DNA of 63,578 bases, the filler included, from Porpidia crustulata (Eukaryota): NCBI GenBank assembly GCA_964255105.1. It is 4 parts of 4 records of this genome, joined end to end, with 100 filler letters (N's around TTAATTAATTAA, not from the genome) between each part and the next. Parts side by side here need not be neighbours in the genome. Positions count along the whole stretch, not along the records: positions 47,839 to 63,578 come from CAXUWE010000283.1; 3 more parts are not named here. One strand, written 5' to 3'. Positions 3,304-63,578 of the stretch are shown here, piece after piece (within the stretch, counting starts at the first letter, position 1; each line of letters opens with the position of its first letter). The notes below the pieces were generated by a model. That model searched no databases, was not told the DNA's origin, and worked only from the letters and a program-made list of their open reading frames with translations. Position numbers and translations under genes: made by a program.

Positions 3304-3669
3304 GAGCAGTTGAGGAAGCTGGATGCGTGGTCTTTCCTTCTTGCTTTTTATCATGTTTAATCACCGTCATGCCTTGTGAGGGTTTTACCGCAAGGAATAG
3401 GGTTGCGACGTTGATTTAATTATGCTAGTATGCGACCAGAGACTTTGCACTTGAAAGCTCTGGAAAGGGACTTGTATGATAACGTTTGACTTAGCCTTCG
3501 TCGGAGAATAACAGACGTACTGATTGTAGCGCAAAAGCATGATATTGCAAATTTTTCAGGCTTGTCCACGTATTTGACCGTCGCTTGTCATGCTCAATAA
3601 TGCCTAGTCGTCCGAATGTTTGAAATCCCAACGCCAGTAGTCCAGGTCCTCTTCGACAAAGCCATCTTG

Positions 3670-15899: not shown

Positions 15900-15999
15900 N
15901 NNNNNNNNNNNNNNNNNNNNNNNNNNNNNNNNNNNNNNNNNNNTTAATTAATTAANNNNNNNNNNNNNNNNNNNNNNNNNNNNNNNNNNNNNNNNNNNN
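15900..15999. other. Artificial contig spacer N44-TTAATTAATTAA-N44
   Basis: Exactly 100 bp; the 12-mer gives stops in all six frames; identical to the other two spacers. Confidence 0.97.
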
Positions 16000-30074: not shown

Positions 30075-30547
30075 CGTGACGTTTCCGACCCTAGTACTAT
30101 ATAGCCTCTGAGAGTCGATGCTTGCGCCCTGTTGAAAATTGTGATACCGAAGCAAGCTCGGTGTTGAGTATCATCAAAATCAGATGGATTTGGTCGGCCA
30201 GGTGGATAATCATATCAACAGTGACGAGTGTAAACAAAAGATATGATCCCTGATCCCTGTTGCGGCTCCAACCTGTTGTCCCTTGCAGTAGCTCCCTTTC
30301 ACGTGCTTTTCCCTCAACGTTTCCCAAAGAGTACGGTTGCGCCCATAGATTACCTGTCCTCATCGAGTTGCATCAGTTGGTAGATGAGATTCCACTTCAA
30401 CTGAAGTAAAGTTTCTGTCCTGTAGTAGAATAGCGTTGTATAGGAGTCTACGATAGTACGGTATGACTACTTCCCCACCTCGATGTTCCACCTAGCATTC
30501 ATTCGTCCACGATATCTCCATCCGGATGATCACCTAATCTTTATATC

Positions 30548-31887
30548 ATGACTTCTGTACTTTCTTATCGACCTTCCACGAGCGGCTCTACTACCGCTTC
30601 CAAACGGCGACCGTCACTGTCCTCCTTCCCTTCATCGCGGACACCTTCAAATCCGTCGGCGCAGAATGCAGCGCCTTCGGCAGCACCTCGTATCCCGATT
30701 CGTCGCGGATCCACTAGTAGCTCGCGCACTCCATCAAGCCCCTCCTCTACACCTCATACAGGCCAAAGAGCAGGTATATTACAACGAACTGGTCAATTGA
30801 AGTCTCAATACCCTGCGGAGTCGACAGAACGCCATGTCGAGTATATACTCGTTGCATCGTTCCACGTTGATCGGGGCCCAATTATGGAACATCAATACCC
30901 AGGGGCAATCAGTGGAGATGAAAATATGTTGGCCGAGCTCATGCTACCTGATCAAGCGCACATGAGAAATGAAGATTGGACCATATTCTTCTTACACAAA
31001 GATACCAGTGAAGACGATGAGAAGGCCGAACAAACCGCCGAGAGAAGAGAGCGGAGAAGGGAAAGGAGAGAAGGCGCAGGACCGACTGGGGTAGGTGATT
31101 CGCAAGAAGGCACTGAAGATGAAGAAGAAAGTGATACAGATACCGACGCCGACGAGGATTTAGATGAGGTGGAAGGTGGAGAAGGGCCGCCGTTGATATA
31201 TGTTTTAAATTTAGTGAATACAAAGCAAGACACAACAGCAAAAAGGTTCCGCCCGTTGTACCCGCTGTGTTATGAATATGAATCTAACTATGCGCTCATG
31301 TAGAGGCGCGGTTGTCAAGGCTATGGCAATATGTACACGACATTCATTCCTTCATATATACAAGGTAGCCGTCAGACGAATAGTGTCCTCTGCACATCAA
31401 AGCTAATATGAAACTTAGCCATTATTACTGTTAGCACTTGAAGAATATTTCAGATCACCATTTCCAGAAACATTAGCGTCATTGTACGATGCAGTCAATT
31501 CAATGGATCTCTCCCTAATGCCTCGACTATCGATTCTCGAACGTCATATACTCCAAGCCAGTGATACCAAAGATTTGTTTGTGGAAAAATTCGAGCAAAT
31601 GATCCAGCAGCGCATGGCCGAAGAATCCAGATCTAATTCCATAACATCTCCAGAATCCCCCTCAAAGCCAGCACTCGAACCCAATAAACATGGGCAAAAG
31701 TATACCGTTCCCCGCGACACACATGAGTTTGAATCCAAAGTCATTTACAACAACATCCCCATCCCCATCAAAGTTCCTACCGGCATCTCCCCCGAAACTG
31801 TGGGCGACTTCTCTCTCATCAAACTGATCCAAGCCTTCTCCGCCCCCCACGCATCCTCCCCTCAACCATTCATGCTGCACCCGCATC
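30548..31887 (+). CDS. mesA: Polarity protein MesA / Afi1-like (DENN-related), 3'-truncated
   Basis: [78 protein letters not shown]; introns ~31246-31303 and ~31365-31418. Confidence 0.88.
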
Positions 31888-31987
31888 NNNNNNNNNNNNN
31901 NNNNNNNNNNNNNNNNNNNNNNNNNNNNNNNTTAATTAATTAANNNNNNNNNNNNNNNNNNNNNNNNNNNNNNNNNNNNNNNNNNNN
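31888..31987. other. Artificial contig spacer N44-TTAATTAATTAA-N44
   Basis: Identical 100-bp spacer. Confidence 0.97.
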
Positions 31988-38784: not shown

Positions 38785-41700
38785 ATGCCTTTCTTTTCGA
38801 AAGTCTTCAGGAGTAATAAGGATGGGTCAGGTGCAACCTCGAAATCGAAGAAGCATGCACCACAAAATGGCGCCGTTCATTTACCACCTCCAAAACCACG
38901 TTGGGACGATGCATGGCTCCGAAAGGACGTCGAACCCGAGGAGGTTCAAGAGCTCCTCAGAGGCTGCATTCAAGAGTTGAAGTCCAAAGGTACACACTCT
39001 GCCAATCCGGCCAAAGAATTTATGGCACCTGAACAGCTGGACTAATCTAATTTCTGTTCGTAGCACTGGATATGCCATTCCTACTTCTACCTTTTAGACC
39101 AGCTTCAGATCCAAGTGCGGCACGCTCGTTCATTCGCAACTATTTCGATGCTGACAAAAACCTCTACCTTCTGGGCGAGGGCCTGGAGCAAGAGCTCCGC
39201 TTGACAGAGCCAATGGTGAGCAAGAAGTATAAATGCGATACCAGGCCCTTACTAATATTTCTAGGTCCTCTGCAGCATCGTGAAGTGGTGTTGGAGCAGA
39301 TTAAGTGGAGGCGTGGTGACCTGGGAAGCCTATGAGCTGTTTCGCATTGGAGAGCAAGGTAGGACAGATGCGACCCTCAAAAAGCATTGGGCTTACTCGG
39401 GATGTAGATTCGGACATGGCCCGTGATGCCTTTGCTACCTTCATACCTATCAGTGTTGAGTCCGACGCACGGACAAAAATCATCTTCGATTTCTTTGATC
39501 TGATGGCTGCAATAGCTGCGCATGGTAAGAACAACGGTATGGGAGGCCGAAAGCTGTCCAGATATGCGGGGTGGTGGGCGTTCGAGCAATTCGATGGTGG
39601 CAATGGTTTCGACGGAGGCTACAAGTCATGGGCAAGGTTGGTTGGAGCGTGAGCCTCAGCCTAACAAAGCTGACAATACTGCAGAGCCGCCGATGCTACA
39701 AGCCACCTATTCTTTGCTTACCTTCGTTCGCTTTCCCCTGACTCTGTCCAAGGAACGAACGGCATCTCAGCTTTGCCGCTTTCTTTGCAAAATCTCGTTC
39801 AAGCGACCGAATATCCGCCCGAGCAGCCAACTCTTAGCGCGGTATCTAAAGTGGTAATGGTTGTAGACTCTGTTTCCCCCACGCCCTTCGCTTTACTACG
39901 CCGTGCCAAGCATTTCGAATACCGGGACGATGATCAAGCGCTTCAGCAATTTTCCAACTACGAGGACCCTGTGCAGGCATTGACTGACGAATGTCGCCGA
40001 GTTCTCAAGAGCATCTCCTCCACGAATCAATCAGCAGTATCCAATTCTAAGGCATCCACCAGCCTCCGTGATGCATCCTGGTCCCGATTTGAAGATATTG
40101 GATTTGGGGGATTGGGTGATGACTCGGATAACGAGGATCCTTCCGCCTTTGGTAGAAAGAGAAATGGGCCGCAGGGCTTGAGATCGGCCCCACAATCGAG
40201 GACGCACGACCTTGGCAGGCCTACGACCCCTTCCTGGGCCGATTTCCTATCAGCTGGTTTTGTCGATGAGCCAGGAAAGGATCATCCTGCGAAACTAAGT
40301 CTACCTGCTGACAAGATGCTGCCGCCCATTGATACCCGAAGAGGACAAAGTTCACAATCGTACCGACGTCCACAAAATAACGATGAGGATCTTGAGCCAG
40401 GTGAGCTTGCTAGTATCAATTTGCTCCACTTTGACGATGCGTTTTGGTGGGTTTGGATCAGTAGCCTGGCTGGAGAAGAACTTGCGGAACGTAAGGGGGT
40501 TTTCGGACGTTGTGCTCTGATCGAGACCAATATCCGCGGAGGGAAATGGCTTGTTCTCGAGGAGATGGTCAAGGGAGCTGCGCCAGAGCCGGAAACGGGT
40601 GCATACATTGCGGAGAAGAAGAGTCGATTTGGGTTCAGTAAGAAAAGCAGACTAAATCGGACAAAAACTAGTTCGAAAAAGACTTCACCTGTGCCTACGC
40701 CGGAGACGTATCCACGAAGCAAACAGCAATCTCCGATGAGCAAAACTAGCATCGGTCCCGACCAGCACGCGCGGATCCAGGCGGCGGCGGCAGCCCTCCA
40801 ACAAAAGCATCGAGATCAAAATAGCACCGAGCAGAAGAGAGGCAGGATGGGGGACGCGGCATCGACGAAGACAAATAGTGTCTTTACGCTACAACCGGTC
40901 ATCATGAGCGAAGCCGGCCCTGCCATGAAATGGGCAAACAGTTATGACAAGAACACCGTTCGAGCTGCGTACTTGGGAAATGACTTTACAGGCAAAGGAC
41001 AAGCGACCAATCTGGGATCCAACCGGCTGCACAATGTTCCGAGTACGAACGGCTCGATAACGCCTATAGTTCGGAAAGAGCCTCTACAGAAAATGGAGTC
41101 GTATGGTTTCCCCAGCCAAGATGCGGACAAAGAGAATCTCCCCCCGGTCCCTGATAAAACAGAGCCTCCTCTACCGCCAGAGCCACCGGTACAGCAAATC
41201 CAATCACAGTCTATAGAGAAAAAACCACCGCCACCTCCTGCTCCTTTACCAGCGGTACCATTCAAAGACCTGCATCCTGCCAACCGGGCTGTCGTGGAGG
41301 CATCTCGAGTCCCTCTACCCGCCGCAACACCTTGGGAACAGCCTCGCCTGGCCGAGGTGCCTCTGCCGGCTGCTACGCCTCCAGAACGATCTCATTCATC
41401 TGGAGAGCAATTTGTAGCTCCTTCAGAGTTGCCACCGAGGGTTGACAACAAGCCGTTACCTCCTATCGAACCGGCAATCGAGTCAACGCCGACGCTGACT
41501 CGGGAAGCCACACAGGAGCCGAACGGCGCCTCATCTACGGCATCATCACCTGAAGTAAAGAAGGCTGGCAAAAGGCTCAAGAAGAGTCAGCCTGGAGGCT
41601 TTAAAGGGTTCTTTGGAAGGAATAAGTCTGGACCAATTGCACCTACTCCACCACGGCCAGCAGATAGCACCGCAGTTGCAGCGGCCAAAGCCGCTTACGA

Positions 41701-42426
41701 GGGGCCTCAAATGAAAGCCAACTATATCGCTCCCGAGGTTCCTAAGCTATCCCGTCGTCTTTCAGGCATGGGACGGAAGAAAGCGCCACTTCCCATCCCT
41801 ATTACAACTTTGCCACCCACTCAGGTCTACAATGAGCCGGTGACAAAGTCAATGGAACCGTCTCCGCTTGAGGCTCCTCATCAAAATTACGACGACTACG
41901 GCTCTCATGCCAGCCTCAGTCGCGTTGACTCGAGCGAGCAGCGCCACGCTGACCGCGAATTTCAGACATTCGATCAAGGTCCGATGACGGATCAGCCAGC
42001 CTTTGTGCCTGAAGACGAATACGAAAGGCGCTCGGGTTCTGCTACTCCACGGCAGTATGAGCCTGAGCCTATTCAAAGGGCATATGAGCATGATCCGATG
42101 CAAATGCCTTACGAACCTCAGCCAATCCAGCAACCATATCATCATGATGATATATCCGAGGTCTCGGAGGAGGAACAATCGAAAACGCCGCCACAAGATC
42201 GTTGGGCACAGATCAGGAAGAACGCCGCAGAGCGTGCTGCAAAGCAAAGCCAAGACCGTGAGAGGACAGATGAAACCGAGGAAGAGGAAAGTGGGGAAGA
42301 GAGTAAGTCATCGCAGCAGCATGTTAAACCAATACTAAATCTGTTCTAGCAATCGAATCACGAGTTGCTCGCATCAAAGCTAAAGTTGCAGAACTGACGA
42401 GCAACATGGACGGCGTTCGTGCATAG
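38785..42426 (+). CDS. Msb1-like morphogenesis protein (DUF1708 / RhoGAP-like N-terminus, long Pro-rich C-terminus)
   Basis: Multi-exon. LDMPFLLLPFRP, KWCWSRL.GGVVTWEAYELF, DFFDLMAAIAAHGK.NGMGGRKLSRYAGWWAF, SWSRFEDIGF, DDAFWWVW; last exon IESRVARIKAKVAELT. Confidence 0.85.
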
Positions 42427-47738: not shown

Positions 47739-47838
47739 NNNNNNNNNNNNNNNNNNNNNNNNNNNNNNNNNNNNNNNNNNNNTTAATTAATTAANNNNNN
47801 NNNNNNNNNNNNNNNNNNNNNNNNNNNNNNNNNNNNNN
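47739..47838. other. Artificial contig spacer N44-TTAATTAATTAA-N44
   Basis: Identical 100-bp spacer. Confidence 0.97.
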
Positions 47839-49544
47839 CTTACCAACCATGATGAAGCTGATGCCGTAGGACATGTCTGTCATGTCGACGACGGTGAGGA
47901 TGGTGCCGTAGCTGGCTTGGCAGTAGGAGCCGCTACCGATGCCGAGGAGGATGGTGTAGCCGTAGATTTTGGCGGTGGAGGTATCGACAGTGATTTGGGC
48001 TAAGGGGATAATCCGGCTTAGCGATTAAGAGTTTCAAGCTGGTGGGGAAGGCAGGGCGGATGGGAGGATGGTAGGGGATCGACTTACACATGAGGACACC
48101 ACCGATGATGCCTAGGATTGTACCACAAACGTACCAGGGCTTGTAGTAGCCCGTTCTTGACATGAAAGCTCCCTGTGCAAGGATGCAGGCACTGAGGACG
48201 AAGATAAATGGTAAAAGCCGGACGGCAGCTTGGAGGGCAGAATCGCCACGTGTGAATTGAAAGTAAATGGGGATGTAGTAGATTGGGACGAAAGCTGCGG
48301 TGGCACCTGTGGCCATTAGGAGGAAGAGTAAGATGGCCTCTCTGCTCTTCAAAAAGTGGACTGGAAACATGCGATCCTTGGTCGTGGTAAAGAATGCCAG
48401 GTACTGTTGAGTAGCAAAGGCAATCCATACAACGGCTCCAACAACGAACAAGGCGATTATTTGAGCGCTATTCCAGGCGTATACTGCACCACCAAAGCTG
48501 ATGGCCATGATCCAACAGACAAAACCACCGATGCTGAGGACCGCTCCGAGATAATCGAATCCTGATGCTCGCTTGGAGTAAAGGGTGCCTGGAGCGGGAT
48601 CGAACGATGGGAGGATAAAGATATAGACAGGAAAGAAGATGCCATTAAGTATCAGATTGATGTAAAAGGCCCATCGCCAAGTGACCTTTTCAAAGCCGCC
48701 ACCAACGACTGGGCCGAGGACAGTGCCAATGCCCCAGAGCAGGCCACTAGTCGCTTACGTTAGGCACTCCTATGATTTTAGCAGAATGTACTTACACTAA
48801 GCTCAAGTATGCCGGGCGTTCTTTGTTTGTGGTATTGACCGAAAGCAGAGTCAAGACACCCAAGTACATACCATTCCCGCCTGCACCAGCTATAACACGG
48901 CCTACAATCATAGCGTTCATATTGGGAGCTGCACCGCAAAGGGCCGATGCTGCCAGGAAGAGTACGCTCGAGATGATGTACAGCCATTTGGCATTATAAA
49001 TGCCGTAAAGTTTCCCGAAAGGCATGACCATGGCAACACCACCAATCATGAATCTATGAGCCACGTTCGTTGGTTAAATGAACGGATCGACTTAAGTTTG
49101 ATGGTGATGACTCACCCAACGGAAAGCCATGGGAGCTTTTCAACACCTTTTAAAGTATTTACGATTGCCTGCGATATCTTAGCTGGCGAAGTAAAGTCGG
49201 ATTTTCGTCGGAGATTGCGCATGAAAAGTGCAACAAGAAACGCAAGAAAGCAACTCACGGGAACAATGTCGGCAACGATGGTATTGTCGAGGGCATATGT
49301 GAAGATGCTTGACACAGTACTGACAACGATGAGGAACCACTAGAGGAATTCAATTGACGCGCATGGTAGAAGAGCTCCGAGAGCTGGTGAAAAGTACAGC
49401 AAGACCTTGAACCTTCCTGGCTGGCTCAGCAGCGGCAGGCGACAGATCTTTCTCAATATCAGAATGTGGGTCGTTGACGCTTCCTAGACCGGCCACGACA
49501 GTACTGGGTAGAGGCTCTTGTTTGGTTTCCATTGTCACGTCCAT
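47839..49544 (-). CDS. MFS DHA2-type (14-TM) efflux pump, 3'-truncated
   Basis: Multi-exon. ALDNTIVADI, LPWLSVGF, PFGKLYG, SALCGAAPNMNAMIVGRVIAGAGGNG, GTVLGPVVGG, WRWAFYINL, YYIPIYFQF. Confidence 0.92.
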
Positions 49545-50559
49545 CAGGATAGCCTAGAAATAGCAGGTAGAAAAATGGTCCGCAGCTATAGCCTTATGGT
49601 TTTCAAGTCAATTGGGAAGAATAATTGGGAAAGCAGAATGAGCAGAATGGAAAAGCTACTGTATTATTCAGTGTGTATGGTATGAAGAACAAGCACTGGA
49701 AATCAAGGAGTTGTGCTGTGCAGTCATTAGCTGTCATTCTGATTTCAAAGCAATTTGCACAATTCCAGGTTGACAGTTAGGATAGTTGGGATCTGCATAC
49801 AATCTAGATGATCGGTTGTAAACAATCAAAGCTGTAAAGTATCAAATAGAGTACCGGGTCTGTATAATTAGCTTACGTGAGCACGCGCGGCTCGATTAGG
49901 TTCGGTCCGGGCCCGATACAGAAGTTGATCGGCGCATATTCGCGGAAGGCTTCCGTTATGGGTCCACCCGTGCCGCGTCCATTTGGTCGTTGGGTGAATT
50001 GAGGCGAAACGCTCGCGTAATGTGTCATACCATCACGCAGTTCCAATGAGACGGCGAGTGAGGGGAGCGCGTGCCGGTCAATTCATGCACGAGAATCGCA
50101 TCACAGCCCTAGATCCATTTTGTGGAGTGCTCCACACGCCGGAGGCTCGTCCGATCGTCCGTATTGCAGAGTAAAGTACAGTAAGGTACTTGCCGTAGTG
50201 TTAGCCGCACTTTCATTCCTCTAGCCGAAACGCGGGGAACGCCAGGGAAAGCGGCTCGGCGAAAGCTTCATCGATCTCCTTCAACTTCAATGCACCAACA
50301 CCAAGTGTCAACAACGTACGGAGTGCGCTGTCAACGCTTGTACCGATCAGAAGCGGTTTGGCGACTTGTATGGCACCTTGGTCATGTTGATCGTCTTGAT
50401 GCCACGCCATCTAGCATCTAAGGCGTTGGTTGGAGTCGATGGACTGACTGTTCTTTATGCCTACCCTCAGCCTCCGGCGTTGCAATCTCATCCTCCCAAT
50501 CCAGCTGCCACATTTTTTCCTTCTTCAAAACAAACAGGAAAGGAATCAAGAGCCGCAAC

Positions 50560-51183
50560 ATGACATCTGCCCCCCCAAGTCAAGTCGAGAAAGCTCCTCA
50601 GACATGCCTCGTCCCATATCTCGACCCAGAAATCGCACCCGAAGCAGTGGCTGCTAAGCTCGCACAGCTGCCTTATAAGCGGAACATCTTTCTGCTACTG
50701 GGACAGTCCTCGGGTCTTTTCCCCCCCTTGATGAGCGTTTATCAAGCCTGCTTCAATGGAGAAACACGCAAGATCCCCCTCCTCGAATGGCAACTTGTCG
50801 TCCTGCGAATCGCCGCCCGCCTCGATGCTCCGTACCCTTGGGATGTCAACGAACCCGTGGCGAGGCTGCAGGGGATGAGTCAAGAAAAGGTCGACAAGTT
50901 GCGCGAGAGTGGCGAGTCCATCGAGGCCGATACGGAGGGCCCATGGACCGAGAGAGACCGCGCCATCATTAGTATTGTCGACGAACAACTCAAGTCATAC
51001 ACTAACGACGAGGGCACTATCAAAGAAGCCCGCCGTCTCTTAAGCGTCGAGGAATTGGTCGAGATATTCATCATCATCGGAATATACACACTCATTGCAC
51101 GTATTACCAAGGGACTCCGGATTGACTTGGACGGCGAGATCCCCGGTATGGCAGAGAAACTGAAGGCTCTTGTGACGAGTTGA
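50560..51183 (+). CDS. AhpD/carboxymuconolactone decarboxylase-like protein
   Basis: Intronless, 207 aa. NIFLLLG, WQLVVLRIAARLDAPYPWDVN..VARLQGMSQEK, WTERDRAI, EELVEIFIIIGIY fit the CMD-like helical fold. Confidence 0.7.
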   Translation: MTSAPPSQVEKAPQTCLVPYLDPEIAPEAVAAKLAQLPYKRNIFLLLGQSSGLFPPLMSVYQACFNGETRKIPLLEWQLVVLRIAARLDAPYPWDVNEPVARLQGMSQEKVDKLRESGESIEADTEGPWTERDRAIISIVDEQLKSYTNDEGTIKEARRLLSVEELVEIFIIIGIYTLIARITKGLRIDLDGEIPGMAEKLKALVTS

Positions 51184-51982
51184 GCGTTTGAGTTGGAAAG
51201 GACGGACTCGGCTTCGGGAAACCTGGATGAGTGGGGGGACAAGTTTGTGGGGGTCTAGTAGTGGATCTTGACTTAATTTGTGCACATGAGAGACTCTTTC
51301 TTCTTGGAAATGAAAATCAGACCGTGAAACGGTAATCCGTGGTGCCGATTGCGAGAAAACTGCCTTCATTCAGTGACGCGTTTGCAAAGTGAAAAATTGT
51401 TCACACCGTAGTCGGACTCTCCAACACCAGCAACGAAACGTCCAATGTCGCCCGTGCTAATCGCAGAAAGTATGCTGGACTTGCTCAAACAGCCTTCCAC
51501 CCAGCTAAGAATCAATGAGCACTAGCACATCCTCCCTAGACTCGTAGGCCTCTACAGCAAAGAGTTTGGAGAGATGACTCGAGCTATTGATCTTCCTCGT
51601 GATCCAATCGCGGAATCACACTGCAGGCTGATGGTCCGACGGCCAGACGCTCTTTCTTGGCATTTTTGCCTGCGTGGAAGGGGCAATGCCGACCTTGACT
51701 AAGAGAGACCAGCAACGGCTGGAATGTAACCATGGCGATCTCTATGAGGTATTGCAGCATGAGAAAGGCGTGTCGCAAAGTACGAGGAGTCTCATGCACT
51801 GCAAACGCACCTGCATGCATCTGCACGCGCCCTGCTATGCTTGAAAGAACTCGCCTACTCAGGATCGGCCTTGTTAATCTTGACAAATTTTCACAGAGCC
51901 CTTGGCATATCAGCAAAACCCCACTTAAGATTGATTTTCCCCATACTGAACGAATCGTCGTCCTGTCCTCTCACCATCAACC

Positions 51983-53086
51983 ATGGAATCCACCAAAACA
52001 CTCAGCAATCGACCAAAGTCTTTCAACGCCAGCGCTCTGACTTTTGCAACGCCAGCAAAACAGGCAGCTACCGTTATCAGACTTCAAACATATCCTGTTC
52101 CAGCTCCTGCAAACAACGAAATTCTTGTTCAGCTTCTTGCAGCGCCAATTAACCCGCAGGACTTCCTGATTATTGCTGATCTCTATCCGATCAAGCCCAA
52201 CTATCACATATCCGGGGAGGCCATTCCTGGATATGATGGTGTTGGACGTATCATCGAAGTTGGGATCGAAATCCATAAGTTCTCTGTAGGCGATCTCGTC
52301 ATCCCCAGATCTCAGGGGTTCGGAACTTGGAGGACACATGCCATCTGCGATGAAGAAAGTCTTATCAAAGTCCCAAATGGTCTAGATATACACTCTGCAT
52401 CGATCCTCAAGATGACGGTCTTGCCGGCGTATTTTCTGGTAGAAGACATGCGCGATCTAAGACCCGGAGATTGGATCATACAGAACGCGGCCACGAGCAC
52501 CATAGCCCAGATGGTTTCTCAATTTGCCCGGCTGAAGGGAGCCCACACTATCAGCATTTTTCGAGACTCGCCCTCTGCAGTTGATAATGATAAGACCAGG
52601 AAGTCTCTGTTACAAAAGGGAGCCGATGTTGCTCTTTCCGAGTATGAATTAGCTGCCACCAACCAAATCGATGGGAAAAGAATCGTGTTGGCACTAGACT
52701 CCGTGTGGGGTGCTTCAGCGGAGAAAATAGCTGCAAAAATGCCCAAGGGTGGTTCCTTTGTCAACTTCGGAGCGCTAAGTGGTGGTGGTCAGATGTCAAC
52801 GATTCAACTCACATGGGACGATATCTTTTGGCGATCTATTGCATTGAAAGGTTACAAGTCAACTGAGAGCCTAGCTCGGAGGTCCCAAGAGGAGGTCGAT
52901 GACCTAGTCAAGTGGCTAGTAGGCCTTTTCGACAAGGGAACGTTGGTCATGCCAAACTATACAAGGATTCCTTGGAGTTTAAGTATGAGCGAGCCTGAGC
53001 AGCTTGAGCAAAAATTGAAGACTGTACTTGAGAGTGCCCAGGGAGTGCAGATCCGGAAAAAGAAGTACATATTTGACTTTTGTTAG
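51983..53086 (+). CDS. MDR-family trans-2-enoyl thioester reductase (ETR1/MECR-like)
   Basis: Intronless, 367 aa. LAAPINPQD..LYP, PGYDGVG, GDLVIP..GFGTWRTH, GDWIIQNAATS. Confidence 0.88.
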   Translation: MESTKTLSNRPKSFNASALTFATPAKQAATVIRLQTYPVPAPANNEILVQLLAAPINPQDFLIIADLYPIKPNYHISGEAIPGYDGVGRIIEVGIEIHKFSVGDLVIPRSQGFGTWRTHAICDEESLIKVPNGLDIHSASILKMTVLPAYFLVEDMRDLRPGDWIIQNAATSTIAQMVSQFARLKGAHTISIFRDSPSAVDNDKTRKSLLQKGADVALSEYELAATNQIDGKRIVLALDSVWGASAEKIAAKMPKGGSFVNFGALSGGGQMSTIQLTWDDIFWRSIALKGYKSTESLARRSQEEVDDLVKWLVGLFDKGTLVMPNYTRIPWSLSMSEPEQLEQKLKTVLESAQGVQIRKKKYIFDFC

Positions 53087-53718
53087 TATTAGTTAGTCAA
53101 TATCAAGTTGAGGCTGTTGTCGAATTTTCCCGAGGTAAATCTCCGAGATAAGACCAATTCCAACCTCGTAAGCTGTACTATACATCCTTCCAAGGATCTC
53201 TGCCGCATAGTAGACATTTGAATCTGAACGATTGACTGCCTGGGTTAAGCCATCTAGAAAGGGCAATCCTCTGGGTAGCCTAACTCCTGTTGGTATATAT
53301 GGGCCCCACGATTATGCCGAAATGTGACCCATGTGTTGCCACGTCGTCAACCCACCTATTCCTAAACCCCCATATTCCGACTGCATAGCTTCACGGAATT
53401 ATACCGCATGGCAAGCTTGAGTCGGACGTAGAAATTCGCCTAAGCTTTGTTCCAATTGGGCGCTTTCACGTCCACACTCAGGTTGTCCTTCTTCGAAACA
53501 GCTAATCGTATTCTGGGGCAAGGCCTCGTATCTGACAGTACGTACTAATGGAATACACAGCGTAAGTCAAGATCTACAGAAGATTTCAGAAGCATAAATA
53601 CCTCATCTTCTGGCTGGATAAGATCAAGAACCAGATCTAACTCACCAGAATACCTTGCGTTTTCCCCTGTCATACAGATCTCAGCGATCGAAGAGGCCTC
53701 TCAGATTTATTGCCCATC

Positions 53719-54700
53719 ATGCTGGGAAGTGTTCTACCGTTCACGGTACGTTATAGCCTTATCGGCACGATAAAGTTTGCTTGTGATTAGTCATCGCAAC
53801 TTCCTCAATTTCAACCTCACTCCATTCAAACTCCGCATCTCGCTAGGATTTCGAGTGGAGTGCTTCATGTTTTCTTTACGACCAAGGGCTAATTCGTCAT
53901 GAGTGGCAGCCACAAGTCGCCGAAGTGGTGAGCCAGTATTGTGAAGATCATTCCTCCAAGCTTCCCCCAAGCTTGATCGAGAACTGGGAATGGACCTCCG
54001 AAAGTTTCGGAGATGCGGACAAAATGTCTTCCAAGCTGCAGGTCGGTTGGAAAAAACCGATATGCCAAGTCTTCCTATGCTTACGAATTGACTGTAGGGC
54101 CAATGGATGATCTTCACTGCCCAAGACCGCAAAGCAAAGCGCGTTCTTGAGTTCGGATGCTATAGTGGCTACAGCGCCCTAGCATGGTATGAAGGAACGA
54201 AGATGACCGGTGCTGAGATCGTTACTCTAGAGCTCAGCCAAGTTATGATCGATGCGTCCCGCAAAGTCTTCGACAAATACAATGTCAACGATCGCGTCAA
54301 ACTAATCGAAGGTCCAGCCGACAAATCGCTTGACACCTTGACAGGCACGTTCGACATTATCTTCATGGACGCTAACAAGGACGGATACGAGGGCTATGTC
54401 AAAAAGATCTTGGACAAGAAACTTTTGTCAGCAGATGGCATCATCCTTTGTGACAACGGTAAGACCAGGCAACCCAGATCAAGAGCCAGACTAACTAATC
54501 CATTTTGCCTAGTTTTCGCTCGCGGTCTCACCATAGGCAAAGACGTCAGCCCTCACCTGAGCAACGCAGTACGACCTTATTGGAGCAGCTGTGGCAGAGC
54601 CCTTGCTCAGTTCAACAATTTCGTGGCACATGATCCAAGGGTTGACGTAACAGTTCTTCCTTTGTTCGACGGTGTCAGTCAAATCAAGTGGAAAGAGTAG
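53719..54700 (+). CDS. SAM-dependent O-methyltransferase, family 3 (CCoAOMT/COMT-like)
   Basis: Four exons. RVLEFGCYSGYSALAWYE, IVTLE, FDIIFMDANKDGYEGY, ILCDN|VFARG, LPLFDGV. Confidence 0.9.
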
Positions 54701-55687
54701 ACATTGCTGTAGATTAGTGCGTACGCACACTAAGGGACAATACACGGTTTCTTGTTCTTTACATTGCTTCTTTTCTCGGCCATTAGGCTTGATCCAGGAA
54801 CAAACTCTACAATGTAGCTGCAAATTCGGCTAAGTCGTCCTCCATTGGTCCGGGAAAGCCACTGCTGTCTATGCTGCTGTGCACCGTCGATCATCTACAA
54901 ATCATCCTCGGTTGTGCGTGCTGAGTAGTCAATATCTGCTTGTCAGAGACTATCCTACCCATGCCATTCGTTTTCTGATGCAACGTACCACTCGAAGATC
55001 CACCACATGCTAGAGCACATCGCTTGTGATTACCACGTTGACATCCAATGACGGATCGAGACGGGTGCTCGTTGGTCTTGCCACCATGTCTCATATTTGG
55101 ATTTACCCAGCTGCTCGGGGTAATGGATGGGTTGTCATTGCAATATCTGCATTCTTTTAAGCGAAACACGGGCTGAGCAGCGCCAGCGAACTCTTGTCAC
55201 CTACCTTATGGGTATCCTACGGCTCAACATGACACGTCAGGCTAACTCTTGCAATCACTAGCAGTTATTATTTGTAACAGTTGCCGCGGTAAAAGTGGCA
55301 TTGATTTGATAGTAAGCCTAACGCCCAAATCTCGCAGATTCATCTAGCCTTGGAAGCATACATACTTTGGGACTAGACAAGCGAAAGACTCAAGATATCG
55401 TCAGTCCATAAAGCTGACAAGTTGTAAGTTTTTGCCTAGAATCTATTTATGATTATTGATTTTCCTCAGACACGAGTACCAAATGATACAAGTGTAACAT
55501 TTCGCCAGTTTCCCAGCTTGGTTTTCCTTTAACAATGTTTATCCACACAAATTTCCTTAATGCCCTGTACGTCGCTCTTCTACTTTCGTATCTCCCATCT
55601 TTAGCTTGCTTCACTCTCAGATAGAACTTGGAGCCGCCAATTAGACCTTGCGTCTATATAATTTATTGGGTCAAACGAAGTTCAGCC

Positions 55688-58600
55688 ATGTATGTAAAGG
55701 AGAGTTCTGGTATTGAGACTGCTTTGCCTGGGTTTGATGATGCGGTCGAAGCGGAATTACCCTTGACGCCAATCCAAGAGGAGCTTATCTTCAAAATTGC
55801 TCGTTCGCCTGATTCCGAAACAATCGAATTTCAGCTCTATCTACCTGATCGCGTATTCTCCAGTTTCGACCTCATTCAGCACACATGGCAAGCAGTTGCA
55901 AGCCATAATCCGGTTCTTCGGACACAAGTTGACCTATCCGACATTCTCACATCTCCTACCAAAGGTAAACAGCGAATCTTGAAACGGGTATCCCTGCTTC
56001 AACTCTTTCGGCCCATGCTCTCTCAGCAAGGAATATTTCACGAAGCTGCCCAATTGGTCATCAGGACTCACAAGGGGCGACTTACGGCTTTTGTTCACCT
56101 TCATCGCGCCTTGATAGATAATGAATCTATACGTCTCATTCGGAGAGACTTCGAGCTGTTTTATAACGGACTGGCGTTTGATAGACACCCAAGAACTGAG
56201 AAATTCTTCAGGCGTACGTGTTTAAGGGATCGCGAGGTTGCTAAAGTCTTTTGGAATACCAATCTCGAAGGCCTAGTTAGCACGCCAATTCATGGCCTTC
56301 CAAGCAAGGTTACAGCACCGGACCTTTGGGCAACAGCAGCTCTGAGCCGAGATACCTCATATCAGGTACAGAATCTTGCTGCTAGATGCAAAGTACCTGT
56401 CCGAACGGTTTTTCATGCAGCATGGGCGTCTACTTTGGCGTGGCATACCGCAGCTGCGAGCAATTCCATCGTGTTTACGGCCACCGGACGAGATCTCTCT
56501 ATGCCCCAGAATCGTTTGGTCGTCGGAAATGCCGAACAATTTTACCCGCTTAAAATCGCCTCAACACAAGAAACCTTGATTAGTGACTGGCTCAACGCTA
56601 TCAACGATTCTGACATCGAAGCATCAAGACATGCATTCATTGGGTACGACTCAATTATGTCTGAAGGTTTTGCATCTATCGGGCAGACATTGGTAACCAT
56701 TCGCTCAAATGAAGATAACCCCACGAAAAACGTGAGTTTCTCCACCAATCGCAAATAGATATCGATTTATCACACTACATGCATAACAGAATCTCTAGAA
56801 GCTGACTTCTGACGATAGTTTCAGGTATACTCCGACAATTTCGCACTGATTCTGGAGATCGTTGTCCTAGAAGAGATCACCCTAACGTTGCATTATAGCC
56901 AAGAAGTTCCAGATGGTCAGGCTCGCATCCTTCTAAACCACTTCGAAGCAGCCATAACCAGTATATCCGACGATAAAGTACAGCGAATTAACGATATCAG
57001 ACTCATCTCCGCGTCTGAGAGGCGATATCTTCTAGATTTAGCACAACCTACGACAGAACCTGCCGGAGGCCTTGTTCATCAGTTATTTGAGACTCAAGTC
57101 CATAAGACTCCAGATGCATCAGCGGCACAATTCGAGTCTGATAATCCTTGGTCCTACTCAGAGCTCAATAAGCTTGCTAACGCAGTTGCTCGCCAACTGA
57201 AATGCGGACGAGGATCCTTTGTGCCTGTGTGCATGCACAGATCGATCAACCTCGTTATTTCACTTCTGGCCATCCTGAAGACTGGAGCTGCGTATGTTAC
57301 ACTCGACCCCGATGTGCCTGCACAGCGAAATGAGTTCATGTTTCGGGATGTTCGCGCCCCCTTTGCCTTAGTTGATCAAGCATCGAGAGGAAAGCTTCCC
57401 TCCGAGGTTATCATTGAGAACTTGATCGAGAGAGCACTGTACCAAGATAATTCGGATCTTCTAATTGAACAAAGCTATGACGATGCTGTCTACGTCATCT
57501 ACACTTCTGGCTCGACGGGTGAGTGAACTTGGAAGATCTGCTCGGGTTATCGTCAGCTAATCTTGGCTACCTTGGAAAGGCCACCCGAAGGGCGTTCCTC
57601 ATAAACATCGAGCTGCTTACAGCGGACTTGCAGCGTTTCCGTCTATACCAGATCTTCGCCAGCTCTTATTCCACAATCCAGTATTTTCGGCGGCGCAGAG
57701 GTCGATTTGGTCTACGCTGAAGCAAGGCGGCTGTCTGTGTTTGGCCAGTAAGAAAAACCTCACGGTATTCATAGGAAATACCATCAATTCAATGGAAGTA
57801 GGTTCAGGGGATCTCAAAGTCCACTTAAATAGAAACTAAAGCGACAGGCTGCAGATCAACACGATTGACGTCACACCGTCGACAGCCACTTTGATTACGC
57901 CTGGATCTGTGCCAAATCTAAAGCGCATGACGGTTGCGGGGGAGCTCATCAATCCAGCTTTAGTTCCAGTCTGGATTGATCGATTGGAGCTGATGAATGC
58001 ATGTGAGTAATCTAATATCAATGCCTTCGTGGGTTCTTTTTAAATGCCGATAGATGGGCTGAGCGAGAACACCCAATTTAATTGGCGTCATGTTATAAAG
58101 AAGGGCCAGAACGCCCAGATCATTGGTCGGCCAACGGATACGACAACTGCATACGTCTTATGCCCAGGCACGACCCTACTGGCTCCGATTCTAGTTCCAG
58201 GAGAGTTATGTCTTGGCGGGCATCAGCTCTCGCAAGGCTATCTGAATCGCCCAGAAAAAACACGTGAAGTTTTCATTGATAATCCTTTTGGCTTGGGTAA
58301 ACTGTATCGAACTGGTGACCTGGTTGCTACACACGCAGATGGTAGCATCGAAATGGTTGGAAGAATCGATTTTTCAATCAAGATCAACGACCAACGCGTC
58401 GATCCTGGCGAGTCCAATTCGATCATTCAATTGCAGCCCTATGTCCAGGACTCTGCGGTAGTCGCTGCTTCAATCTCTGGACGTAGACGACTGGTGGCTG
58501 TTGTGGTACTCAAGGATGAAAATGCTTACACTTCACCGCTGAAAGTGCTCCGCAAGCAATTAGAGGACCAGTTGCCACATTATATTGTCCCAACATACTG

Positions 58601-61600
58601 GGTCATTCGTACAGAACTTCCACTTAACATCAATGGCAAAGTTGATGTCCCCGCTCTGCGTAAGATCTGCGAAGATTTAGGCAGAAATGGCGTTATGCAG
58701 AGACAGAGCGAGTCGGCCGATCCCAAGTCCGAGATACTCTCTCCCGTTGAAGAAAGTCTCAAACGTCTTTGGTCTTTGGCGCTCTCAATACCTTCCGACG
58801 AAATTTCTAAAACTGATTCTTTCCTCGCAATCGGTGGGACTTCATTAGACGCCATCAAGATATGTTCTGCTGGCTTAGAGGCTGGCCTCCGAATAGATCT
58901 TGCACAGCTCCTCCAGGGATACTCCATCTCCCAATTAGCACAGGAACATACACTACAATCCGATGTTGAAATAGCTCCGACTCCCAAGCCGTTCTCTTTG
59001 GCGCCTAAACACTTTCCGATCAATTTGGATGAAGTCGAAGATTTATTCCCAGCAACTCCATTACAAGAAGGCTTGATCGCAGACTCGATACTTGGAAAAA
59101 CTGACTACATGTTTAGGAAAGCTTTCAGCTTCAAGGGTGTCCAGACTTCTCGCCTACGCGATGCTTTCGAGGTGGTCGTCAAGGAAAACCAGCTTCTCCG
59201 TACGGTATTTGTTGCATATGGCATCTCGTTTCTCCAAGTGATCCGGAAGCACATTATACTGCCGTGGTCAAACATAGACATGGATCTGGATACTTACCAG
59301 AGTCGAAAACGCCACGATGTCGAGTTTGTTGCTCTAGACATGCCGTTGCTACGAATTACAATCTTAAGATCAAGTGTAATGGTTGTTGATACGCATCATG
59401 CACTATTTGACTTCTGGTCTACCCAATTTCTCTATGAGGACATTCGAGCCGTCCTCAAAGGTCGGAAACATATTGTACGCCCGCCTTTCAGCATATTTTG
59501 CCACTACCTCAACAGTCAGGATAAGACCATATCTCGCCAATTTTGGAAGACCTATCTTGAAGGAGCAAAGCAAACTTCGCTCAAAGTCGTTCCGGGTGAG
59601 GGGCTTTATTTGGAAGCGGACCTCAACTTTGATCTCAAGTCTGCCGTATCTAAGAATAAGCTGACCGCGGGGGTCCTGCTCTATGCCGCTTGGGCGATCA
59701 CCCTTTCTGCCTGGAACTCTTCGAATGATATTGTTTTCATAGTCAACATCTCCGGTCGTGAAGTCCCAATAAAAGGCATCCTGGCATTGAATGGCCCAAC
59801 CTTAGCTACGGTACCGATGCGAGTAAGGATCAAGAACTCAGTCGACGTGCTCGAGCTCGCACGGACGCTGATTCCAGAATTTTGGAGGCTCGCAAAGCAT
59901 GCTCATATTGGTTTAAGGAACGTCCTCCAGGCTTCGGGGCTTCCTTCATCCTTCATCAACAGTGCAAGCAACTTTCTCATAACTTTAAGGCAAGATGAAG
60001 AGTGTGACGTATTGCAACCTTTGAACATCAAACACACAAACCACACAGACTATCTGACGCTAGAGGTGGAAGACAGGAACCTTCATCGTATTAAAATTTT
60101 CTCGAACAGAAGGTTCACTAGCGCCGATAGAATCCTCCAAGACGTGATCGAAGTTCTGCGAGTGACCGTAGAGGAACCGCAGACCAAAATCAACGATGTT
60201 TTACTGCGAATTGGACCTCATCATCCGCGTTTGCCAAAGCCCATACCTGCAAAGCTGTCTCGATCAAGTGATGTATCAAAGCCAGTATTGGCTAAGGTTC
60301 TCCAACCAGACGACCACCATACACAAGTCATGGATGATTGGTGGAAAAGTTACGTTGCAGACTATACACCATCGGTACTAGTCAGTTGTCCCGGTGAGCA
60401 GCAGACTACCATCAAGGAATCCTTGTCGGTTGATGTGGAGGCAGCAGCTACGAAATTGGGAGTCTCTCAGGAAGCTCTATGGTATACATCTTGGGGTGTA
60501 GTGCTGGCTCAACATACCAACACCCAAATTCCTCTGTTCGGTGTCATTCGTTCCGATAATAACATTTCCACAAAGCATGGTAAACCCTTTCTACACTGCA
60601 CACTGGAACGGGTGACTTTGTCAGAGGCCCAAGACCTGTTGTTGGAGGTCGTCAATTCTGTTCATCGGGAACTGTGCAACAAGACTGATTCCAGCGGTTT
60701 ACGAATCGAACAGATATTGGAATTTGCCTCTAACAATTCGAAACCGTTTGACACTTTCCTTGAATTGAGCATTGCCAATTTCGAAGATGAGAGACACACG
60801 TCGGATTTGAGTATTTATGGTAAAGCATTCGGTTTCCAAAACACTTTTCTGAGAATTGACTGTCGGCCTCTCAAGACAACAATGACTATATGTAGCAAGA
60901 TGGAGAAAATCCGCGCCGAATTCATCCTAGATCAAATGTTCACCATAATCCAAATCCTAGTCGAGAATCCAGACTTACCCACTGGATCGGTCAACGTAAT
61001 TGGTAAAACGGAACGAAATCTACTCCATACTTTGGCACGTTTCACGACCCCCGAGGTACATTTGGTACACAGTCTGTTTGAGGAGCAGGCTCGTCAAACC
61101 CCAGATAGATTAGCTTTGCAGTGGGAGTCGTCCGAGTCGCTGACGTACAAAGCGCTCAACGATCGGGCTAATCGGCTTGCCAGGTATCTGATTTCCATGG
61201 GTACCACCTCGGAACAGATGATACCGCTGCTGTTGGATAGATCGATCTACACGATCATTTCCATCCTGGCTGTCTTGAAGACTGGAAGTGCGTATGTGCC
61301 AATGGACCCCGAGAATCCGGCCGAGCGTAATCTCTTCATTCTTGATCAAGTTCAAGCCAAGATCGTCATTACACATAGCTCGTACACAGATTTTGCTGCT
61401 TTGCACAGCTCAAGGTCAATTTTTATAGACCAGCTACCCGATCTTGATTCATATTCTACCACCGATACACATATTGGTCATGTCAATAACCTAGCCTACT
61501 GCATCTATACGTCAGGCTCGACGGGCGCTCCTAAAGGCGTCAATATACAGCATCGTACAATCTTGGTCGCAGTTGAGGGAATGATCATAGACGAAGGCAT

Positions 61601-63578
61601 GCAGCCAGATTGGAGATTCCTCTCATTCGCTAATTACGTATTCGACGTCTCTGTTCATGACATATTTTGTGTCCTGAGCACAGGTGCAACTCTCTGTATG
61701 GCCTCCTCGGATAGGCTGATGTCTGATCTTGCGGGTGTCATCAATGAGACACAAGCCACTCAGACCTTTTTGACTCCGACTGTGGCTAGACTGATTTCAC
61801 CTGCCGACGTCCCCGGATTACAGACTTTGATATGCAGTGGAGAGGCAATGACAGCTGACATAATTCGATCCTGGGCATCGGAACGGACACTCATCAACTA
61901 CTACGGACCAACGGAGTGTGCTGTCAACGTGACAATCAAATTCGTTGGTCCAGATACCAGTCCAACCAACCTAGGAAAGCCGATCCACACTGCATCAGCT
62001 ATGATTATCGAAAGAGCGGGTACTGACTTGGCTGTTTACGGTTCAGTTGGCGAAATCTGTATCGGTGGCGGTCATGTTGGTCAAGGCTATGCAAGTCTCT
62101 CCCCTGCGCCAGATTACTTCCTGACACCGTCTAACAAGAGCCAATCCGCAGATGAATAGAGAAGACCTCACTGCAAAAGTTTTTCTGCCCAGCCCCATCC
62201 CAAGTGTAGGACGCATGTATCGGACAGGGGACCTTGGCCGATGGCTCCCTGGTGGAAACCTGGAATACCTAGGTCGCATGGATCATCAGATCAAGCTTAA
62301 TGGTCATCGGATAGAACTTGGAGAGATCGAGCAAGTCATCCTTAGGAGCGGTCTAGTGCAAGATTGTATAGCAATGGTACTGGACGAATTACGCAGGCCT
62401 CAACTCGCGGTATTCTGCATCTTTGAGACTTCTACCGAAATAGCTATCGAGGAACCTTTCAAGTACACCTTCAACTTGCTCCAACTCAAAGGAAGTCTCG
62501 GTAGTCTGGCACATTACATGTTACCGAAGTTTGTGTTCCCTATGGGCCGCTTTCCACGCTCGTCAGCGAATAAAACAGATAGACGGCGGCTAGCAAAGCT
62601 CGCAGAGGCGATTGGCACGTCCAAGCTCTCTCAATACTCTTTGGACGTGGTGGGTGTCGAGGTAAATAGTTTCAAGTCTCCTATATCTGTAGAGGAGATT
62701 TTCCTGCAGAACAAATGGTCGGAATTATTTCAGATTGATAAATTTGATATTGGTATGTCACTCTTTTACCCTACTTTCACCATGCTTCCAATGGTCCAGT
62801 CATCGCATTTCAGCCTTTAATTGACCACTAATTCCACTTGTGTAGGAGCTGAAGCCAATTTTTTCGCTTTGGGTGGTGATTCCATTGCAGCCATCAATCT
62901 GGTGAGTTTGTGCAGGAAATCGAGTTACAGTCTGCTTGTCAGCGATGTCCTTAAGTTGGCAACACTCGGTCGCATCGCAACCCGTTTGACAAAGGACTCA
63001 CTCCGAGTAAATGGCTTATCAAAACTTGTGGAAAAATATGTGCCACCGACTGCCATCCACGGATTACTCCAAAAACATAGCATTAAGCAGTGGTGTATCG
63101 AATACTTTTACCCGGTTCCACCAGGTCAGGCAGAGTTTCTCACCCAAGGAGCTAAGGAATCCCAGATCTGGGTAGTAACCGCTGGTCGGCCCTTCGCAAC
63201 ACATCACAGCATAGAAAAATACAAAAACCTCATTCAAGAATTGACAAGGATATATGATATCCTTCGCACGACCTTTGCCAACCTAGAAGGCCACGGCTGG
63301 GTGGGCGTAGTCTTCAAAGAGCCAGCGATGGACTTCTCCACACGGGAATGCGTAGTAGCTGAGAGAAGCCAGATCATCGACGAGATCCAGAAGTCGCGTT
63401 TCGTCTTCGGGGAACCATTCATCAACTACAACCTGCTCGAGTATCGTGATAGCCCCTGGGAAATCGTCATCAAAATGGACCACGGCCTCTGGGATGGTAC
63501 CTCCCTCCGAATATTAGATGACGCCATTCTCACGCTCCAAGACTCCGGCATTCGGGGGGGCGGGGGGCGGGGGGGGGG
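55688..63578 (+). CDS. Non-ribosomal peptide synthetase, C*-A1-T1-C-(half C)-A2-T2-C..., 3'-truncated
   Basis: Spliced over six introns, including GC-AG 62091-62151. A1: YTSGSTG.PKG, YRTGDL, NGKVD. T1: GGTSL. C: HHALFD. A2: [27 protein letters not shown]2: GGDSI. Last C: MDHGLWDG. Confidence 0.95.

What the first reader, a model, noticed from the sequence alone, without database searches (positions are those of the whole stretch)
57580..58110. A1 domain lacks Asp235; manual specificity code S-A-R-D-T-A-A-Q-F-K
In exons missed by the ORF track, the A4 motif reads [10 protein letters not shown] instead of FDxS (Ser codon at 57687). Asp235 binds the alpha-amino group, so its loss indicates a non-amino-acid substrate, and Arg at 239 could bind a distal carboxylate. 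From memory, an S-A-R start is also seen in the fumarate-activating A1 of Aspergillus fumigatus SidE; this needs verifying. The P-loop and catalytic Lys (NGKVD) are intact. A2 is canonical (approximately D-V-H-F-I-S-Y-V-N-K).
Basis: partly seen in the sequence, partly recalled or inferred. Interest (0 to 1): 0.75.

Follow-up and report, generated by a model that had tools for sequence, protein, structure and literature searches.

The report
Fungal diacid-starting peptide synthetase cluster
The odd binding pocket is real but is the shared mark of a known fungal enzyme family that attaches a small dicarboxylic acid (fumarate in the two studied cases) to an amino acid; this copy sits in an unstudied gene cluster that the ageing-model fungus Podospora also appears to carry around its lifespan gene PaMth1.

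Summary
Observation confirmed. After splicing, A1 of this fungal two-module NRPS reads S-A-R-D-T-A-A-Q-F-K, with Ser (codon 57687) where the amine-binding Asp235 normally stands. It is no private oddity: 199 of 455 related A domains begin S-A-R, always in the first module. That clade holds both characterised fumarate-loading domains of Aspergillus fumigatus: SidE A1 (SARGTVSQLK, 41% identical) and, closer, NRPS7/PesH A1 of the ftp cluster (SARDVGSQLK, 57%). A1 most likely loads fumarate (about 0.6) or another small diacid (about 0.27); nothing was assayed. The added value lies beside the gene: an O-methyltransferase, an enoyl-thioester reductase, a CMD/AhpD-like protein and an MFS pump. Podospora anserina has consecutive, highly expressed genes of the same five kinds (Pa_2_7870-7910). 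One is the longevity factor PaMth1, orthologous to the window's methyltransferase. Its NRPS neighbour has a 9/10 identical A1 code, and both transcripts fall sharply in the grisea mutant. PaMTH1 may thus be a tailoring enzyme of an unknown diacyl-amino-acid metabolite. A2's substrate is unresolved, and the gene's 3' end is cut off by the contig end.

The parts
55688..63578 (+). Two-module NRPS gene, C*-A1-T1-C-(half C)-A2-T2-C, six introns, cut by the contig end inside the last C domain (about 260 aa missing against P0298)
55688..57060 (+). N-terminal C-like domain, motif HRALID in place of HHxxxD (probably not catalytic; same in closest relatives); intron 56732-56818; end approximate
57086..58640 (+). 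A1 adenylation domain, code SARDTAAQFK; introns 57519-57579, 57798-57854, 58003-58053
57687..57701 (+). S235-A236-A-Q-R239 of the altered A4 motif
57867..57869 (+). Asp278, shared with NRPS7/PesH A1, Gly in SidE A1
58755..58943 (+). T1 carrier, GGTS
59037..60200 (+). Internal C domain, canonical HHALFD
60321..60990 (+). Extra C-terminal half of a C domain (about 230 aa; A1-A2 spacing 1279 aa against about 1030 in most relatives); borders approximate
61077..62574 (+). A2 adenylation domain, code DVHFISYVNK, amino-acid type, substrate unresolved; GC-AG intron 62091-62151
62846..62988 (+). T2 carrier (main exon), GGDS
63103..63545 (+). Terminal C domain, DHGLWD as in SidE (DHGLYD), incomplete
53880..54700 (+). 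Cation-dependent O-methyltransferase (Pfam Methyltransf_3), orthologue of Podospora PaMTH1; introns 54042-54097 and 54459-54512; start not fixed
51983..53086 (+). 2-enoyl thioester reductase of MECR/Etr1 type; a second, 33% identical gene of this type lies elsewhere in the genome
50560..51183 (+). Carboxymuconolactone decarboxylase/AhpD-like protein (Atlas feature score 0.98; no Pfam or NCBIfam hit)
47839..49532 (-). MFS efflux transporter (DHA2-like), cut by the contig start

Best explanation
A1 is the starter domain of a SidE/FtpA-type NRPS and loads fumarate. Lys517 holds the carboxylate that is adenylated, Arg239 at the pocket floor holds the far carboxylate, and Ser235 leaves no amine-binding site. 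Fumaryl-S-T1 is condensed by the internal C domain onto the amino acid loaded by A2 (small and polar, Ser-like, or Pro-like), and the terminal C domain releases an N-diacyl amino acid. The neighbouring reductase, O-methyltransferase and CMD-like protein tailor the product or protect the cell from it, and the MFS pump exports it. Shown: code, clade, domain order, intact motifs, neighbours. Inferred: substrate, role of Arg239, product, roles of the neighbours.
For: S235, A236, R239 define 200 of 457 domains; Q330 is in 199 and K517 in 197 of these, and all 199 relatives are first A domains. The window's A1 nests in the clade that holds both SidE A1 and NRPS7/PesH A1: SH-aLRT 100 for the S-A-R clade and 98 for the Asp/Glu278 subclade with PesH (quick tree); UFBoot 86 and 94 with the ten code columns removed. 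AFUA_3G15270 = pesH = nrps7 lies in the ftpR cluster cited to the paper on aromatic fumaric acid amides; SidE makes fumarylalanine. PMC10549243 ties the Asp-to-Ser change to fumaric-acid-activating domains, citing those two papers. Every polar pocket residue of the window's A1 occurs in one of the two fumarate loaders (D278 in PesH, T299 in SidE). An enoyl-thioester reductase next door fits an unsaturated acyl thioester.
Against: The code matches each characterised domain at only 6 of 10 positions; A301 with F331 is in neither. I found no characterised member of the SARDTAAQ subclade (55 relatives, 63-82% identical). SidE A1 and PesH A1 are themselves only 44% alike, so the bracket is wide and subclades could have shifted. 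The reductase, the PaMTH1-type methyltransferase (in vitro it methylates vicinal hydroxyls) and the CMD-like gene are not explained by plain fumaryl-amino-acid chemistry. The two primary papers were not readable; that their A1 domains prefer fumarate in vitro, and the name FtpA, are recalled.
Confidence: 0.6

Rival explanations
1. A1 loads another small diacid (succinate, malate, tartrate, maleate, mesaconate/citraconate, muconate type). The CMD-like protein makes it (for example by decarboxylating aconitate), the reductase saturates it on the carrier, and the methyltransferase caps a hydroxyl or carboxyl; the product could be an imide of the versimide/pencolide kind (compounds recalled, not checked).
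For: Four code positions differ from each fumarate loader. The same methyltransferase accompanies SARDTAAQ domains with three different A2 codes: window DVHFISYVNK, L001 DAQIIGVMVK and Podospora DAFMLCGILK. This points to the shared A1-derived part as its target. Reductase and CMD-like annotations recur in Podospora.
Against: No assay or metabolite; three loci only; no pocket residue foreign to both fumarate loaders is polar; CMD/AhpD-like proteins have many roles; a methyltransferase can also cap fumaryl carboxylates, as FtpM does.
Confidence: 0.27
2. A1 activates an amino acid or an aryl acid despite Ser235.
For: PlmJ A1 (SIVIVTAGTK) activates Met; McyG has Val at 235 and is described as Phe-activating; Alb01 A1 (Ser235) loads pABA. 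A catechol-type methyltransferase next door would suit an aryl acid.
Against: None of those has Arg239 or Gln330. The aryl-acid A5 motif QQVxFMAEGL is absent; A1 has NAYGLSE. The tree places A1 between two fumarate loaders.
Confidence: 0.06
3. The gene or its A1 is decaying or inactive in this organism.
For: A1 departs from 9 of 183 columns conserved in at least 90% of its subclade, the joint highest of 57 domains, and GVPHKH after the P-loop is unique in that set. The 3' end is not in the assembly.
Against: No stop or frameshift in 2482 codons; most departures are conservative; Pro at that place occurs in the solved enzymes CytC1 and Thr1; carrier serines, HHALFD and K517 are intact; the break is a contig end in a G-run, not a lesion in the gene.
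Confidence: 0.07

Closest known systems
Aspergillus fumigatus NRPS7/PesH (AFUA_3G15270; FtpA by recall), aromatic fumaric acid amides, ftp cluster
   Same: Two modules behind an N-terminal C-like region; A1 S-A-R-D...Q..K, 57% identical; same supported subclade; methyltransferase and transporter in the cluster (AFUA_3G15250 as MFS and 3G15280 as FtpM are recalled).
   Different: A1 positions 299, 301, 322, 331 (T-A-A-F against V-G-S-L); A2 code DVHFISYVNK against DGYNAGSICK (39% identical); longer N-terminal C region and an extra half C domain; methyltransferase of PaMTH1 type (about 240 aa, whereas FtpM reaches at least residue 274); reductase and CMD-like genes here.
Aspergillus fumigatus SidE (AFUA_3G03350), fumarylalanine synthetase
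   Same: S-A-R, T299, Q330, K517; terminal C motif DHGLxD; member of the 'SIDE' group of Bushley and Turgeon together with Afu3g15270 and Pa2_7870.
   Different: A1 only 41% identical, Gly at 278; no N-terminal C domain; A2 DVYFTGGVLK.
Podospora anserina Pa_2_7870-7910, uncharacterised cluster holding PaMth1
   Same: NRPS A1 SARDTAAQVK, 69% identical; adjacent PaMTH1 matches the window's methyltransferase at E 2.5e-77; next genes annotated as trans-2-enoyl-CoA reductase, MFS efflux pump and a peroxiredoxin-activity GO protein.
   Different: A2 DAFMLCGILK (42% identical); no extra half C domain; last two genes in swapped order; Pa_2_7890, 7900 and 7910 compared by annotation only, and adjacency read from locus numbers.

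Membership tests
SidE/FtpA ('SIDE') diacid-starter NRPS | First A domain with Ser235, Ala236, Arg239, Gln330, Lys517 | tested here: met
SidE/FtpA ('SIDE') diacid-starter NRPS | A1 groups with SidE A1 and PesH A1 independently of the code columns | tested here: met
   (UFBoot 86 for the clade, 94 for the subclade with PesH)
SidE/FtpA ('SIDE') diacid-starter NRPS | A-T-C-A-T-C core with intact carrier serines and internal HHxxxD | tested here: met
   last C domain cut by the contig end
SidE/FtpA ('SIDE') diacid-starter NRPS | A1 adenylates fumarate and the product is a fumaryl amide | not testable with these tools
   needs assay
FtpA/PesH orthologue | A1 code SARDVGSQLK and A2 code of DGYNAGSICK type | tested here: not met
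   6 of 10 in A1; A2 39% identical with another code
FtpA/PesH orthologue | FtpM-type carboxyl methyltransferase in the cluster | tested here: inconclusive
   window enzyme is PaMTH1-type and shorter; FtpM sequence not obtained
SidE orthologue | Starts with A1, codes SARGTVSQLK and DVYFTGGVLK | tested here: not met
Podospora Pa_2_7870-7910 (PaMth1) cluster type | SARDTAAQ NRPS next to a PaMTH1 orthologue | tested here: met
   also locus L001
Podospora Pa_2_7870-7910 (PaMth1) cluster type | Enoyl reductase, MFS pump and CMD-like gene follow | tested here: inconclusive
   same kinds by annotation; Podospora sequences not compared; no matches in the 10 kb upstream in L001
Podospora Pa_2_7870-7910 (PaMth1) cluster type | Same second amino acid (A2 code) | tested here: not met
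   DVHFISYVNK against DAFMLCGILK

The most novel reading that the evidence does not exclude
The SARDTAAQ subclade is the core of a widespread, uncharacterised five-gene pathway (NRPS, PaMTH1-type methyltransferase, enoyl-thioester reductase, CMD-like protein, MFS pump). It builds a methylated, possibly reduced diacyl-amino acid or imide from a diacid that need not be fumarate, with module 2 swapped between lineages. PaMTH1, studied since 2000 as an ageing and oxidative-stress factor with only plant flavonoids as test substrates, would then be this pathway's tailoring enzyme, and its lifespan effects would run through an unknown endogenous metabolite.
Probability: 0.4. Interest if true: 0.7.

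Novelty: new variant of a known kind. Interest (0 to 1): 0.45.

Why it matters
The pocket itself adds little: fumarate-loading fungal A domains with Ser235 are in print. Two things matter. First, the family is wide (lichen fungi, Onygenales, Sordariales, Eurotiales, a few basidiomycetes), keeps one diacid pocket and carries dozens of different A2 codes, so it marks an untapped series of diacyl-amino-acid metabolites that code-based predictors can miss when they expect Asp235. Second, the cluster links to PaMth1: if its native substrate is the product of the neighbouring NRPS, an open question in the Podospora ageing field becomes testable with one gene deletion and LC-MS.

Tried and rejected
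Private mutation or mis-splice as the cause of the missing Asp: rejected. First splice trials were off by one base and gave stops; corrected. Direct alignment with GrsA-PheA: 1AMU was hit but not displayed; Thr1 D212 served as anchor. Primary papers on SidE and the ftp cluster: not held; supplements of PMC9307002 and PMC11253843 not readable and may hold FtpM's sequence or code tables. A2 substrate: best matches 6 of 10 to bacterial DVWHISLVDK and DVQFIAHVVK (their reading as Ser and Pro codes is recalled); no match in the 44-domain table; no code table in the passages found in PMC3672099. Missing 3' end: not found in the own genome. Expression: no RNA holder listed; the one run laid is a single contig identical to the window up to 63446 and may be its source, so no independent support. 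The careful tree did not finish; one search is a smaller bootstrap tree of 36 hand-picked domains. Metagenome scan gave only 3 loci from 408 candidate stretches; only L001 reaches upstream genes, and its MFS gene does not match the window's. Paracoccidioides supplements had no neighbour list. Earlier scan findings: none. No structure model or complex job was run.

Full report
Setting. The window is four contigs joined by N linkers (15900-15999, 31888-31987, 47739-47838). The finding lies on the last one, 47839-63578 (G000:C283), in a 22.9-Mb assembly with intron-bearing fungal genes. Genes left of 47839 are not physically linked to it.

Observation. Splicing six introns gives a stop-free 2482-aa NRPS from 55688 to the contig end, with order C*-A1-T1-C-(half C)-A2-T2-C. 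It aligns end to end with an annotated Acarospora protein, P0298 (64%), which supports the gene model and shows about 260 aa missing at the 3' end; these were not found elsewhere in the assembly. A1's A4 motif is [10 protein letters not shown] with the Ser codon at 57687, and the code is SARDTAAQFK; A2 is DVHFISYVNK. The Ser stands against the Asp of FDxS in A2 and against D212 of the solved Thr1 domain (counted), which binds the amine (PMC11253843, passages).

How common. Three homologue searches (best 120 listed each) gave 430-odd stored proteins with cluster members; 225 of them were taken forward (the hits, P0298 and selected fungal hits; most bacterial hits and other cluster members were left out). 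They yielded 455 A domains longer than 250 residues, plus the window's two. 200 of 457 begin S-A-R, 250 have Asp, and 7 are truncated, misaligned or other. All 199 relatives with S-A-R are the first A domain found in their protein; 199 of 200 have Gln330. Twelve relatives have exactly SARDTAAQFK, and 55 have SARDTAAQ at 63-82% identity. The searches were seeded to find this family, so these are not frequencies among all NRPSs. Named carriers include lichen fungi, Histoplasma and relatives, Podospora, Chaetomium, Elsinoe, Aspergillus, Penicillium and, with S-A-R-G codes, three basidiomycetes.

Known members. P0182's cluster is A. fumigatus 'Nonribosomal peptide synthetase 7'. nrps7 = pesH = AFUA_3G15270 (PMC6737921 and PMC5423626, table passages), which lies in the ftpR cluster cited to Kalb et al. 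2015 on aromatic fumaric acid amides (PMC13068945, passages). P0350's cluster holds 2109-aa A. fumigatus proteins and relatives named SidE/NRPS3; SidE makes fumarylalanine. Their A1 codes are SARDVGSQLK (57% identical to the window's A1) and SARGTVSQLK (41%). [quoted passage not shown] I could not read either primary paper; the name FtpA and its in-vitro fumarate preference are recalled. Bushley and Turgeon group SidE, Afu3g15270 and Pa2_7870 as 'SIDE' (PMC2823734, passages). In a 74-domain quick tree the S-A-R domains form one clade (SH-aLRT 100) and the window's A1 falls in an Asp/Glu278 subclade with PesH A1 (98). With the ten code columns removed, a 36-domain tree gives UFBoot 86 and 94.

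Mechanism. By that bracket A1 loads a small dicarboxylic acid, most simply fumarate: Lys517 for the reacting carboxylate, Arg239 for the far one, no Asp because there is no amine (inference). T1 and T2 serines and the internal HHALFD are intact; the N-terminal C region has HRALID and is probably structural; the terminal C has DHGLWD like SidE's DHGLYD. The product would be an N-diacyl amino acid. A2's amino acid is unresolved: 6 of 10 matches to bacterial codes recalled as Ser and Pro, none in a 44-domain table (supplement part 5). Against over-reading: the code agrees with each characterised domain at only 6 of 10 positions, Ser235 alone can go with Met, and the window's A1 has the joint highest number of departures from subclade-conserved columns (9 of 183, among 57 domains).

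The cluster. Upstream lie a Methyltransf_3 O-methyltransferase, a MECR/Etr1-type enoyl-thioester reductase (a second such gene lies elsewhere), a CMD/AhpD-like gene and an MFS pump. The methyltransferase's best solved relative is PaMTH1 of Podospora anserina (E 2.5e-77). PaMTH1 is Pa_2_7880 (PMC3495915, passage); Pa_2_7870 is the NRPS P0281 with A1 SARDTAAQVK, 69% identical. Supplement rows of PMC3869774 annotate Pa_2_7890 as trans-2-enoyl-CoA reductase, Pa_2_7900 as MFS drug efflux transporter, and Pa_2_7910 as unknown with GO:0051920 (that this term marks CMD/AhpD domains is recalled). These five genes run at about 830-10,200 tpm, against 18-40 tpm for Pa_2_7850 and 7860, though their age profiles fall in different clusters. 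In the grisea mutant the NRPS drops to 0.02 and PaMth1 to 0.06 of wild type (PMC3495915 supplement rows). A third locus, L001, has SARDTAAQFK, A2 DAQIIGVMVK and the same methyltransferase upstream (60-72%), but an amidase and an unrelated MFS gene in place of the others. So NRPS plus methyltransferase recur in 3 of 3 loci whose upstream region I could see, with three different A2 codes; reductase and CMD-like gene recur in 2 of 3, in Podospora by annotation only. PaMTH1 has been assayed on flavonoids with vicinal hydroxyls, and its deletion shortens life (PMC5945814 and PMC2851567, passages). Term searches in PMC5945814 found no mention of NRPS or cluster, and library searches listed no paper linking PaMth1 to the NRPS; subscription papers were not searched, so the link may be in print.

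Module swap. The window, P0298, P0163 and P0149 carry an extra C-terminal half of a C domain before A2 (spacing 1230-1279 aa against about 1020-1046). It resembles the C lobes of SidE (E 6e-16) more than its own neighbour C (E 9e-5), and their A2 domains form a supported clade (99) inside the DAQIIGVMVK group. This fits a recombination that brought in a second module together with half of its C domain (inference). Across the family one A1 pocket type is paired with dozens of A2 codes.

Verdict. The flagged feature is real and correctly read, but it is the family mark of known fumarate-starter NRPSs; the gene is not an orthologue of SidE or FtpA. It represents an uncharacterised subclade with its own A2 and a different tailoring set, shared with the Podospora PaMth1 locus. 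Substrate odds: fumarate 0.6, other diacid 0.27, amino or aryl acid 0.06, inactive 0.07. Interest 0.45.

Noticed in passing
window 53880-54700 and 47839-53086: The methyltransferase is an orthologue of the Podospora longevity factor PaMTH1, and the five-gene set recurs as Pa_2_7870-7910.
   Followed up: yes
window 60321-60990: Duplicated C-terminal half of a C domain, shared with three close relatives; possible scar of a module-2 swap.
   Followed up: partly
window 62091-62151: Intron with a GC donor (GC-AG) inside A2.
   Followed up: partly
window 57582-57605: GVPHKH after the P-loop, where most relatives have GVLLEH; unique among 57 subclade domains, but Pro occurs there in two solved bacterial enzymes.
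   Followed up: partly
window 63551-63578: Contig ends in a G-run in mid-frame, probably a sequencing or assembly artefact; the rest of the gene is not in the assembly.
   Followed up: partly
window 15900-15999, 31888-31987, 47739-47838: N linkers (the one read holds a TTAATTAATTAA spacer): the window is four separate contigs.
   Followed up: yes
L001 2342-3859 and 4900-6200: An amidase and a PaMTH1-type methyltransferase upstream of a SARDTAAQFK NRPS.
   Followed up: partly
proteins P0212, P0213, P0225: Basidiomycetes (Amylostereum, Taiwanofungus, Rickenella) carry S-A-R NRPSs of an otherwise ascomycete family; transfer not tested.
   Followed up: no
G000:C5 15244-36406: Two long NRPS open frames (3099 and 4661 aa) on another contig of this genome.
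   Followed up: no
window 6866-7777, 30530-31943, 39674-42349: UbiA prenyltransferase, Afi1 and Msb1/Mug8 family genes on the unlinked contigs.
   Followed up: no
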